A stretch of DNA of 64,000 nucleotides from the human T2T-CHM13v2.0 reference genome, Homo sapiens, in assembly GCF_009914755.1 (NCBI RefSeq), contig NC_060925.1, one strand, 5' to 3'. Shown here in pieces: positions 59,414-61,901 of the stretch; the first letter of the stretch is position 1, and the number at the start of each line of letters is the position of its first letter. A program made the translations under genes and the position numbers. The notes under the pieces are model-generated. The model saw only the letters and a program-made list of their open reading frames with translations. It was not told the DNA's origin and searched no databases.

Positions 59414-59782
<369 letters not shown>

Positions 59783-59790
59783 TTAGCTAA

Positions 59791-60014
<224 letters not shown>

Positions 60015-60124
60015 TCCATCCATAATTTTAAGTTAGCATGGGCATGAAGACACATTTTGCTTAAGATATGAAAGGTGGAAGTGAAGCTACCACCATATTA
60101 CTTTCATGCATGGAAGGTTGATGT

Positions 60125-60445
60125 GAGCAGCTGGTGCCGTTACAGTGCACACACATTGTTGCTGATCTGCTGGTTTACGTTGTTGGCACTGCACAGTAGC
60201 TGGGCTTTCAGTTGCTTTACTCCCACTGGATCACCTCCTTCAGCTTTTCTGAATCCAGTGCCAGAGTGTACAGCTCCGGAAGCAGCAGCTGAGCTTGCAG
60301 CTTCTCCAGCTCCCGCCAGATCTCTTCCTTCAGGTTCTTTGAATCGTTGGCCAGCATGTGCAACTCCTGGGGCAGCGGCCAAGCCCACAACTCTTCCAGC
60401 TCCTGGAGGAATCTCTTCTGCCAGGTTCTCTAACACTTGGGCCAG
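60125..60445 (-). pseudogene. APOA4: APOA4-like coding fragment inside the LTR, 90-bp unit triplicated, disrupted
   Basis: Manual translation LALDSEKLKEVIQWE/KQLKAQLLCSANNVNQQISNNVCAL* vs remembered human APOA4 [42 protein letters not shown], 22/41 identical; two frameshifts and a stop. Confidence 0.78.
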
Positions 60446-61901
60446 TCCCAGCACCAAAGATAGAAGTGATAGTAGTACATAAAATGTTTTGCTAGCTCCC
60501 ACAATTACATAAAGTCAAATCCTTGTAATATACAAACTCTGTAGTCTATATTGAGTATAGTGGTTCTTTTCTTCTAATCAAAACCTATTTGATACAATAA
60601 TACATCATGACTATGTGAAATTTATTCTAGGAATGTAAGATTTGTTTAACATTTAAAAATATATCAATGTAATTCACTATATTAATAGACGAATGTGCAA
60701 ACTCTGTGATTATCTCAACAGGTACAGAAAAGATGTGTGAAAAAATTTAAACTGCAACAGCCGTGTGTGACATAAATCATCAGCACACTAGTTATAAAAA
60801 GAAACTTCTTCAACCTGATAAAAGGTTGTCTATAAAACCCATAGCTAATAACATAATGGTGAAAGATTCAATACTTTCCTCCTATCAGGAAGGAATAAAG
60901 GATGTCCAGTTCCATGACTTTTATTTACCATTATACTGGAGGTCCTGGCCAGTGTAATAAAGCAAGAGAAAGATTTTTAAAATCATGTAAATTGGAAAGG
61001 GAAGAAGTAAAAGAGTTTTGATTCATAGATGACATGATCATGTGAATCAATATCATATGAAATCTGCAAAACAGATCCTAGAACTAATAAGTAGATGTGG
61101 CAAGTTTGCAGAATGTAAGATCACTAAGCAAAAATCAATTGCAGAGTAGCTTCAAAACATAAAATATATAGGGATAAATTTAATAAGTTGTGTGTAAGAT
61201 TTATATACTGAAAATTCTCTCAAACTTTGTGGAGATAAGCCAAAGATAATCTAAGAAAGTGGAAAGACTTCCTAGGTTCAAGAATTAGAAGACTCAATAA
61301 TGTGAAGCCATTAATTCTCCCTCAATTGATCTATAGAGATCTCAATCATTCAAAATCTAAGTTGGATGTAGTAAAAATCAACAAGCTGGTTCAAAAATTT
61401 ATGATGAAAATGCACAGGACCTAAAATAGTCATGGTAATTTTGAAACAAAATAGTTGGAGGACTTATATACTACTCTGATTTCAAAACAAAATATAAAGC
61501 TGCAGTAATCAAGGCAGTGGGTATTCATGTAAGAATCAATGGGATAGAAAAAGATCCACACATATATGGGTGATTGGTATATGACAGGAGTACCAAGGTA
61601 CTTCAATGAGAAAGGGATAGTCTTTTCAACAAATGGCGCTGTCTATCGATATGAAAAAAATTGACATCCATCTTTACTTCACACCATAGACTGAGGTCAC
61701 ATACCTAAACATAGAAGTCAAAATGATAAAACATCCAGAAGAAAACATAAGAGAAAACACTTTTTAGCCTTGTAGTAGTCGTCCAGATTTTTAGGATACA
61801 AAAAAGCAAAAGCCATAAAAGAAAAAGATAATATATGTACTTCATCAAAATGTAAAACTTATGCTTTTCAAATACACCATTAAAAAAAAACAACAAAAAA
61901 T

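What the first reader, a model, noticed from the sequence alone, without database searches (positions are those of the whole stretch)
60125..60445. Host-gene capture: APOA4-like coding sequence carried antisense inside an ERVL (MLT2-type) LTR
Seen: inside an LTR bounded by ATAAT TSDs, the minus strand from 60264 down translates (one frameshift) as LALDSEKLKEVIQWE/KQLKAQLLCSANNVNQQISNNVCAL*. Known (from memory): apolipoprotein A-IV has [47 protein letters not shown] in its last exon; 22 of 41 positions match with no gap other than the frameshift. The piece has no poly-A tail or TSD of its own. Inference: an ERVL lineage transduced part of the APOA4 mRNA into its LTR. If so, other copies of this LTR family should carry it, and LTR-sense transcripts would be antisense to APOA4. 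It may already be part of the family consensus; I cannot check that.
Basis: partly seen in the sequence, partly recalled or inferred. Interest (0 to 1): 0.8.

Follow-up and report, generated by a model that had tools for sequence, protein, structure and literature searches.

The report
APOA4 exon fragment inside old LTR
A decayed solo retroviral LTR in this window carries about 200 bases copied long ago from the apolipoprotein A-IV gene, and well over a hundred sister LTRs across the human genome carry the same piece, so it is an ancient host-gene capture by the whole repeat family and not a local event.

Summary
The minus strand of 60133-60445 is homologous to APOA4 exon 3.

The stretch lies in an 839-bp solo LTR (59758-60596). 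A half-Alu splits the LTR. It sits in an L1 ORF2 remnant and has a perfect 5-bp duplication, ATAAT, at 59753-59757 and 60597-60601.

The piece belongs to the family, not to this copy:
- A six-frame genome search with APOA4 residues 60-150 gave 128 dispersed matches at E<=1. Twelve scored better than any paralogous apolipoprotein gene.
- Sister copies hit ApoA-IV at E about 1e-14.
- The piece has the same LTR flanks in 36-37 of 41 copies.

The captured part is exon-3 nt about 41-245. It probably lies antisense in U3.

This window copy holds three tandem units of about 90 bp. Two other copies share the same breakpoints.

Capture ran from gene to LTR, roughly 100 Myr ago. No present function is indicated.

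Not tested here: the family name (MLT2-type ERVL), whether the source was RNA or DNA, and whether Dfam or Repbase already record the piece. Six literature searches found no description.

The parts
59753..59757 (.). Left copy of the 5-bp target-site duplication ATAAT
   Evidence: sequence; the left flank reads ..KRII and the right flank reads IIHHD.., so the L1 ORF2 frame closes when the LTR and one ATAAT are removed.
59758..59828 (+). First 71 bp of the solo LTR (probable sense strand +). It starts TATGGTTG, where sister copies have TGTGGTGG.
   Evidence: 59757/59761-59832 aligns to the matching end of many sister copies (for example L003, L050, L035, L036; E down to 2e-7). One search shows the termini.
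59829..60014 (-). Half-Alu (right-arm-like, with A-rich tail) inserted into the LTR. Its 10-bp target duplication TCCATCCATA lies at 59819-59828 and 60015-60024.
   Evidence: sequence; 59829-60015 matches Alus in other loci at 74-85%. The call that it is right-arm-like is my own reading.
60015..60596 (+). Rest of the solo LTR, ending ..TTTGATACA
   Evidence: the number of sister copies aligned falls to 0 at about 60025 and about 60600; on the minus strand, TGTATCAAATAGG.. begins at 60596.
60368..60445 (-). APOA4-derived unit 1 (exon-3 nt 94-170)
   Evidence: blastn 71.8% to APOA4 exon 3.
60282..60354 (-). APOA4-derived unit 2 (exon-3 nt 94-166). It reads ..LANDSKNLKEEIWRELEKLQAQLLLPE.
   Evidence: 78.1% over 73 nt; phmmer alignment to ApoA-IV residues 82-116.
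60133..60264 (-). APOA4-derived unit 3 (exon-3 nt 94-226). It has a frameshift near 60218-60219 and a stop at 60140-60142.
   Evidence: 22 of 41 identical to APOA4.
60520..60539 (+). Decayed counterpart of the family's AATAAA block. It reads TCCTTGTAATATACAAACTC here, with no intact signal.
   Evidence: for the sister copies. The placement in the window is by eye; the window was left out of that alignment.
60597..60601 (.). Right copy of the target-site duplication ATAAT
60597..61400 (+). Host sequence: an old L1 ORF2 (reverse-transcriptase region) remnant. Its left part continues at 59717-59757 and, beyond a full Alu, before about 59427.
   Evidence: translation (IIHHDYVKFILGM.., LLFTIILEVLASVIKQEKDF); 5 of 5 PDB hits are LINE-1 ORF2p, but E is only 0.19-0.51 because the query has 20 aa.

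Best explanation
Window 59758-60596 is a dead solo LTR of an ancient class-III (ERVL/MLT2-like) endogenous retrovirus family. It inserted into an L1 ORF2 with a 5-bp duplication and was later hit by a half-Alu.

The founder of this family acquired about 205 nt from inside APOA4 exon 3 (nt about 41-245, residues about 73-141). The piece went into the middle of the LTR (U3), probably antisense to LTR transcription. Because U3 is copied into both LTRs at every replication cycle, every descendant inherited the piece. That is why well over 100 human copies carry it in the same context.

In one sub-lineage the segment nt 94-~170 was duplicated in tandem. This copy has three units. That resembles the U3 repeat amplification seen in other retroviruses.

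Shown here: homology to APOA4, presence across the family, the element's boundaries and duplication, the old age, and the ancient duplication.

Inferred, not shown:
- The capture mechanism. I favour a template switch of reverse transcriptase onto a co-packaged APOA4 transcript during plus-strand synthesis, which would give an antisense insert. Filler-DNA capture in the 3' LTR of a master provirus is the alternative.
- That the piece is now a neutral passenger.
For: Homology to APOA4:
- 22 of 41 identical.
- ApoA-IV is the top PDB hit.
- 78% over 73 nt.
- sister copies give E 1.1e-14 and 2.1e-14, aligned to residues 73-141. ApoA-I and ApoE give E 0.02 or worse.

Family-wide presence:
- 137 matches at E<=1, with 150 of 248 candidates scored. 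Nine are the APOA4, APOE, APOA5 and APOA1 genes, leaving 128 dispersed matches. Of these, 34 have E<1e-3 and 12 score better than the best paralogue (APOE, 5.1e-6).
- 41 of 41 examined copies match exon-3 nt about 38-249.
- of 39 non-self hits found with LTR-only sequence, 9 coincide with places. Of 6 others fetched, 4 carry the piece.
- the LTR flanks are shared with at least 3 other copies in 36 of 41 (one side) and 37 of 41 (other side).

LTR nature:
- sharp common ends, with elements of about 500-665 bp.
- TGT..ACA termini. The 5-bp duplication matches 5/5 in the window, 4/5 in L022 and L053, 3/5 in L013 and 1/5 in L063.

Orientation: the aligned AATAAA block lies on the strand opposite to APOA4 sense.

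Old duplication:
- the units are 70-72% alike, as diverged as separate copies.
- L012 and L015 have the same breakpoints.

Direction gene to LTR: the same APOA4 stretch aligns to APOE, APOA5 and APOA1, so it is an integral part of an old gene family.

Age: the median identity between copies in the LTR flanks is 64-66%.
Against: - No copy was found next to ERVL internal sequence. Between the one same-strand pair (C23, 8.5 kb apart), 0 of 86 open-frame pieces hit a retroviral Pfam domain. No shared internal flanks appeared among 41 loci. So 'ERVL' rests on the 5-bp duplication, the termini and recalled resemblance to MLT2 consensus ends.
- Orientation is only probable. A raw count of AATAAA/ATTAAA did not separate the strands (13 against 13 of 41). 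The aligned block is exact in only 6 of 36 copies.
- Pfam Apolipoprotein does not hit the window pieces.
- Two LTR-only hits that were fetched (L072, L073) showed no piece. Twenty-four further hits were not examined.
- The source (RNA or DNA) and the capture mechanism are untested.
Confidence: 0.85

Rival explanations
1. Chance resemblance: an amphipathic, coiled-coil-like codon pattern (CTGGAG.., GAGAAG..) that merely looks like an apolipoprotein.
For: The window pieces get no Pfam hit. For the window itself the PDB E-value is only 0.0054. APOA4 is internally repetitive.
Against: Sister copies hit ApoA-IV at E about 1e-14 and always at residues 73-141, not at the other repeats, whose stretches score i-E 10 or worse. 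DNA identity runs colinearly over about 200 nt in 41 of 41 copies. Dispersed copies beat APOA4's own internal repeats and the paralogues. No unrelated coiled-coil protein appears among the PDB hits with E<1.
Confidence: 0.01
2. A local event: an APOA4 pseudogene fragment that landed in this one LTR copy.
For: The three tandem units are unusual for the family: only 3 of 41 copies have more than one unit.
Against: The piece lies in the same position with the same LTR flanks in 36-37 of 41 copies on many chromosomes. It has no poly-A and no duplication of its own. The units are 70-72% alike, so the repeat is as old as the insertion.
Confidence: 0.02
3. The carrier is not an ERVL LTR. It could be another kind of old repeat, such as a MaLR-type LTR or a composite non-autonomous element, that holds the APOA4 piece.
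For: No internal retroviral sequence was found next to any copy. The family name was not testable because no Dfam or RepeatMasker was available. MaLRs also make 5-bp duplications (recalled).
Against: The ends are discrete, with TGT..ACA termini and a 5-bp duplication. A polyadenylation-signal block lies about 65 nt from one end. The terminal motifs resemble MLT2 consensus ends as I recall them; this was not tested.
Confidence: 0.1
4. The piece has a function today: LTR transcripts act as antisense RNA against APOA4, or the piece acts as a regulatory module at this locus.
For: The probable antisense orientation. Tandem amplification of one segment in U3 in three copies.
Against: Copies are 58-83% identical to APOA4 over at most about 200 nt, with indels, too diverged for specific antisense pairing. 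The units and copies diverge about as much as the LTR flanks do, which gives no sign of constraint. The window copy is split by an Alu and lacks an intact AATAAA. Per the hub note, the nearest annotated genes are lncRNAs more than 16 kb away.
Confidence: 0.04

Closest known systems
MLT2-type solo LTRs of ERVL (class III endogenous retroviruses; Repbase lists MLT2A1-MLT2F with HERVL, ERVL-B4 and ERVL-E internals, PMC5753468 table passage seen)
   Same: Size of about 500-665 bp, TGT..ACA termini, a 5-bp target duplication, mostly solo copies, old age, and terminal motifs that I recall from MLT2 consensus sequences.
   Different: The centre of the LTR is an APOA4 exon fragment. The subfamily name could not be checked. 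No ERVL internal sequence was found beside any copy.
Transduction of host sequences by retroviruses and gene capture by endogenous retroviruses (for example Chong et al. 2014, crocodilian ERVs; only the title was seen, in the reference list of PMC5753468)
   Same: A host exon sequence became part of a retroviral genome and was then copied with it.
   Different: The piece lies in the non-coding U3 of the LTR, probably antisense. It is only about 205 nt from inside one exon, with no sign that it was ever expressed as protein.
Tandem enhancer repeats in retroviral U3 regions (such as the 72-75-bp repeats of murine leukaemia viruses; recalled)
   Same: Two or three head-to-tail units of about 90 bp in the U3 part of the LTR, with shared breakpoints in 3 copies.
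   Different: No enhancer activity was shown. The repeated unit is host coding sequence.
APOA4 gene (chr11, exon 3) and a processed pseudogene of it
   Same: 58-83% nucleotide identity and up to 62% amino-acid identity with residues 73-141. Closer to APOA4 than to APOA1, APOE or APOA5.
   Different: Only about 205 nt. No poly-A, no duplication of its own, no exon junction. Frameshifts and stops are present. More than 100 copies always sit inside the same LTR.

Membership tests
Solo LTR of a class-III (ERVL/MaLR-like) endogenous retrovirus | Discrete element with 5'-TG..CA-3' termini | tested here: met
   homology depth falls to 0 at common ends. TGTATCAG..CCACCACA in L013, L022, L053 and L063. 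The window has TGTATCAA..CAACCATA (one mismatch).
Solo LTR of a class-III (ERVL/MaLR-like) endogenous retrovirus | 5-bp target-site duplication | tested here: met
   Window ATAAT/ATAAT, 5 of 5. L022 and L053 4 of 5, L013 3 of 5, L063 1 of 5. Only these five copies had both ends placed with confidence.
Solo LTR of a class-III (ERVL/MaLR-like) endogenous retrovirus | Polyadenylation signal in the 3' part of the LTR | tested here: inconclusive
   an aligned AATAAA block about 65 nt from one end is exact in 6 of 36 copies and within one mismatch in 17 of 36. The raw motif count does not separate the strands.
ERVL (MLT2 family) specifically | LTR pairs flanking ERVL gag-pol-dUTPase with a tRNA-Leu primer site | tested here: inconclusive
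   The one same-strand pair (C23) has 0 of 86 open-frame pieces with a retroviral domain between its copies. No shared internal flanks among 41 loci. The attempt to reach an ERVL provirus through dUTPase hits found only betaretrovirus-like elements.
ERVL (MLT2 family) specifically | Match to the Dfam/Repbase MLT2 models | not testable with these tools
The resemblance of the termini to MLT2 consensus ends is recalled only.
APOA4-derived sequence | Significant similarity that is specific to APOA4 rather than to its paralogues | tested here: met
   (E 0.0054 for the window, about 1e-14 for sister copies, ApoA-I and ApoE E 0.02 or worse); 12 dispersed copies beat APOE, APOA5 and APOA1.
APOA4-derived sequence | Colinear DNA homology with a defined part of the gene | tested here: met
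   spans within exon-3 nt 35-249 in 41 of 41 copies; identity 0.54-0.78 for nt 46-240 against 0.32-0.46 outside, except 0.53 for nt 1-15.
Pfam Apolipoprotein A1/A4/E domain (PF01442) | Score over the family's cut-off | tested here: not met
   0 of 3 window pieces hit any Pfam family. The pieces are short and decayed.
Processed pseudogene of APOA4 | Spliced cDNA copy with a poly-A tail and its own target duplication | tested here: not met
   colinear upstream blastn hits are few and weak for both queries (exon 2: 3, best E 13; intron 2: 1, E 36), so homology extends into neither; no A-tract at the end of the piece. The piece is always embedded in the LTR.

The most novel reading that the evidence does not exclude
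A host coding exon was turned into retroviral regulatory DNA. After an early eutherian ERVL captured about 205 nt of APOA4 exon 3 in antisense into U3, the piece became part of the LTR's enhancer region. It helped that lineage spread to more than 100 fixed copies and was then amplified in tandem (two or three units with identical breakpoints in this window, L012 and L015), as retroviral enhancers are. The capture is not recorded in repeat libraries or in print.
Probability: 0.15. Interest if true: 0.6.

Novelty: new member of a known kind. Interest (0 to 1): 0.45.

Why it matters
It is a clean, datable example of a mammalian endogenous retrovirus carrying off part of a cellular gene in its LTR and spreading it genome-wide. 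Such cases are well known for oncogenes and for plant elements, but few are documented for old mammalian LTR families.

It has a practical use. The more than 100 APOA4-like fragments are repeat-borne, so they should not be taken for APOA4 pseudogenes or exons in translated searches. The piece also gives a fixed outside reference, the APOA4 gene, for dating that LTR lineage.

It does not point to any present function at this locus.

Tried and rejected
- Pfam on the three window translations: no family.
- Tandem Repeats Finder on 59900-60700: nothing. The units are only 70-72% alike.
- Provirus search. The only same-strand pair within 10 kb (C23:20524346 and 20532828, 67.5% alike) has no retroviral domain between its copies (0 of 86 pieces). 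I read them as two solo LTRs.
- Shared flanks among 41 loci are Alu or other common repeats, not internal retroviral sequence.
- Reaching an ERVL provirus through Pfam dUTPase hits failed. The two places fetched (L067, L074) have gag zinc knuckle, then dUTPase, then protease, then RT. That makes them betaretrovirus-like, and they show no homology to the family.
- Raw AATAAA/ATTAAA counts do not tell the strands apart. Only the aligned block does.
- Extension of homology into exon 2 or intron 2: few, weak colinear upstream hits for both (exon 2: 3, best E 13; intron 2: 1, E 36). The slight rise at exon-3 nt 1-15 (0.53) is not enough to claim that the piece starts at the exon border.
- Phylogeny against APOA4 orthologues. 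The protein search returned only three eutherian ApoA-IV sequences. With no marsupial, monotreme or sauropsid sequence, no tree was built.
The 20-aa stop-free part gave only L1 ORF2p hits, at weak E.
- The ATAAT at 60022-60026 as the left duplication: rejected.

Full report
OBSERVATION

Frame 60264..60220 gives LALDSEKLKEVIQWE. One base further on, 60217..60143 gives KQLKAQLLCSANNVNQQISNNVCAL and then a stop.

I took the APOA4 sequence from the genome itself, not from memory. The Pfam Apolipoprotein model located APOA4 exon 3 at C11:116836101-116836988, minus strand, and translated it.

The frame upstream (60429..60220, 70 aa) contains a second copy of the same motif (..LANDSKNLKEEIWRELEKLQAQLLLPE..). 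In a phmmer search of 177,635 PDB sequences its two best hits are ApoA-IV (E 0.0054 and 0.019, residues 82-116). The only other hit has E 1.5.

At the DNA level the window matches APOA4 exon 3 three times, each time starting at exon-3 nt 94:
- 60445-60368 matches nt 94-170 (71.8%).
- 60354-60282 matches nt 94-166 (78.1%).
- 60264-60133 matches nt 94-226 (65.4%).

Pfam did not hit any of the three window pieces. Tandem Repeats Finder saw no array.

THE ELEMENT IN THE WINDOW

I aligned the region to 40 related loci and counted how many cover each position. The count is 0 left of about 60025 and right of about 60600.

The left edge is only apparent. Bases 59829-60014 are a half-Alu with its own 10-bp target duplication (TCCATCCATA at 59819-59828 and 60015-60024). 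The 71 bases to its left (59758-59828) align to the matching end of many sister copies.

The flanks are an old L1 ORF2:
- The left flank reads ..IKQYVKRII and the right flank reads IIHHDYVKFILGM...
- A 20-aa stretch further on finds only LINE-1 ORF2p in the PDB (5 of 5 hits). E is only 0.19-0.51 because the query is so short.
- The L1 frame closes exactly if 59758-60596 and one ATAAT are removed.

So the element is 59758-60596 (839 bp with the Alu, about 643 bp without it and without the extra copy of the Alu's duplication). It is flanked by a perfect 5-bp duplication, ATAAT, at 59753-59757 and 60597-60601. The other ATAAT, at 60022-60026, is a coincidence beside the Alu duplication.

THE FAMILY

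The window's assembly can be searched. A DNA search with 60100-60460 found 9 other places at 71-89% identity, all within the APOA4-like part.

A six-frame search with APOA4 residues 60-150 gave 137 matches at E<=1, with 150 of 248 candidates scored:
- Nine are APOA4 itself (4), APOE (2), APOA5 (1) and APOA1 (2).
- The other 128 are dispersed over the chromosomes and cover query positions of about 13-85.
- 34 dispersed matches have E<1e-3.
- 12 score better than the best paralogous gene (APOE, 5.1e-6).

Reciprocally, two sister copies translated as they stand hit ApoA-IV at E 1.1e-14 (residues 76-141) and 2.1e-14 (residues 73-115). ApoA-I and ApoE reach only E 0.02-0.6. This excludes chance and a generic coiled-coil resemblance.

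All 41 copies examined (40 loci plus the window) have a blastn match to exon-3 nt about 38-249. These loci had been chosen by that very similarity, so I made an independent check. A search with LTR sequence only (327 nt beside the piece in L056) gave 39 non-self hits:
- 9 coincide with places.
- Of 6 others that I fetched (those with long alignments), 4 carry the piece and 2 (L072, L073) do not show it.
- 24 hits, mostly short matches to one conserved LTR block, were not examined.

Outside the piece, the two LTR flanks are shared with at least three other copies in 36 of 41 and 37 of 41 copies.

Structure of the copies:
- They have sharp common ends and are about 500-665 bp long.
- Where both ends could be placed, they show TGT..ACA termini. 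The 5-bp duplication matches 5/5 in the window, 4/5 in L022 and L053, 3/5 in L013 and 1/5 in L063.

This is the anatomy of a solo LTR of a class-III retrovirus. The terminal motifs agree with what I recall of MLT2 (ERVL) consensus ends. That is recall, not a test, because no repeat library was available.

I found no copy next to ERVL internal sequence:
- The one same-strand pair within 10 kb (chromosome X, 67.5% alike) has no retroviral domain between its copies (0 of 86 pieces).
- No internal flanks are shared among the 41 loci.
- The attempt to reach an ERVL provirus through dUTPase hits found only betaretrovirus-like elements.

EXTENT AND ORIENTATION OF THE PIECE

In an alignment of 39 copies with the gene, identity to APOA4 is 0.54-0.78 for exon-3 nt 46-240. 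Outside that range it is 0.32-0.46, apart from 0.53 for nt 1-15.

Colinear blastn hits upstream of the piece are few and weak for both queries: 3 for exon 2 (best E 13) and 1 for the end of intron 2 (E 36), so homology extends into neither. The piece is therefore internal to exon 3, and the source (mRNA or DNA) stays open.

In a typical copy the piece lies about 170 bp from one end and about 320 bp from the other (L022).

On the strand opposite to APOA4 sense, about 65 nt before the ..GATACA end, the copies share a block of the form ..TATAATAAATCCCTTATTC.. Its AATAAA is exact in 6 of 36 copies and within one mismatch in 17 of 36 (the rows are shown). A polyadenylation signal at that distance from the 3' end fits the usual LTR layout. 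It also fits the orientation in which I recall MLT2 and MaLR consensus sequences being written.

This is not proven: raw motif counts do not separate the strands, and no provirus was available.

THE TANDEM UNITS

The three units in the window are 70% (62 of 89) and 72% (62 of 86) alike. That is as diverged as separate copies of the family, so the repeat dates from about the time of insertion or before.

L012 and L015 carry the same segment (nt 94/96 to 166/170) twice, with the same breakpoints. A sub-lineage of the family therefore had a tandemly amplified U3 segment. That is 3 of 41 copies examined.

DIRECTION, MECHANISM AND AGE

The APOA4 stretch concerned also aligns to APOE, APOA5 and APOA1. 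It is therefore an integral part of an old gene family, and the transfer ran from gene to LTR.

The piece sits in U3 and is present in nearly all copies, so it must have been in the 3' LTR of the founder's genome before the family spread.

How it got there is inference. I favour a template switch of reverse transcriptase onto a co-packaged APOA4 transcript during plus-strand synthesis, which would give an antisense insert. Capture of filler DNA at a break in a master provirus is the alternative.

Median identity between copies in the LTR flanks is 64-66%. With a Jukes-Cantor correction and the usual human neutral rate of about 2.2e-9 per site per year (recalled), this gives about 0.2 substitutions per site per lineage, or roughly 100 Myr. 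That is near the eutherian radiation and is a rough figure only.

Copies are 58-83% identical to APOA4 and show frameshifts and stops. The window copy is split by an Alu and has lost its AATAAA. I see no sign of a present function, and specific antisense pairing with APOA4 mRNA is unlikely at this divergence.

WHAT IS KNOWN

Six full-text searches combined APOA4 or apolipoprotein with LTR, ERVL, MLT2, MLT2E/F, RepeatMasker, pseudogene or endogenous retrovirus. I saw only listings and abstracts, and none links APOA4 with an LTR family.

In the Repbase overview (PMC5753468) I read only the passages found by term search. It lists the MLT2 subfamilies and has no occurrence of 'apolipoprotein'.

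I could not see Dfam or Repbase records. Their consensus almost certainly contains the piece, and a curator's note may exist.

Host-sequence capture by retroviruses is a known kind of event. This would be a further, rather neat, member of it: a piece from inside one exon, in U3, probably antisense, spread to more than 100 copies and then amplified in tandem.

LIMITS

- The family name, ERVL membership, the sense strand, the RNA or DNA source, the capture mechanism and the date are not settled.
- Copy numbers are lower bounds, because the search scores only the best candidates.
- No consensus of the family was built. That would have sharpened the boundaries and the date.

Noticed in passing
window 59829-60014 (duplications 59819-59828 and 60015-60024): A 186-bp right-arm-like half-Alu with an A-rich tail lies inside the LTR, flanked by a 10-bp target duplication TCCATCCATA. 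Its right duplication ends in ..ATAAT, which mimics the LTR's own duplication.
   Followed up: partly
window about 59427-59716: A full-length Alu splits the same L1 ORF2 remnant that hosts the LTR. L1-like reading (..[14 protein letters not shown]) resumes to its left.
   Followed up: no
table, contig C23 (X chromosome): 16 of the 128 dispersed APOA4-like matches lie on C23. That contig is about 5% of the genome, so this is about a 2.5-fold excess. I have no explanation and did not test it.
   Followed up: no
L041/L042 = C17:5530547-5530768 (-) and C17:5532680-5532904 (+): Two copies about 2 kb apart in inverted orientation share non-family flanking sequence at 91-93%, and their rows in the alignment are nearly the same. 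This looks like an inverted segmental duplication of one truncated copy.
   Followed up: partly
C12:50926862-50927029 (+) and C12:50931496-50931625 (+): Two family LTR fragments lie 4.6 kb apart on the same strand. The second (L073) shows LTR sequence but no clear APOA4 piece. It could be the remnant of a provirus. The interval was not fetched.
   Followed up: partly
L067 (C20:1447001-1451000) and L074 (C3:128824601-128828600): The best Pfam dUTPase matches in the genome are betaretrovirus-like proviruses with the order gag zinc knuckle, dUTPase, protease, RT. A 142-aa stop-to-stop dUTPase frame recurs in many of the rows.
   Followed up: partly
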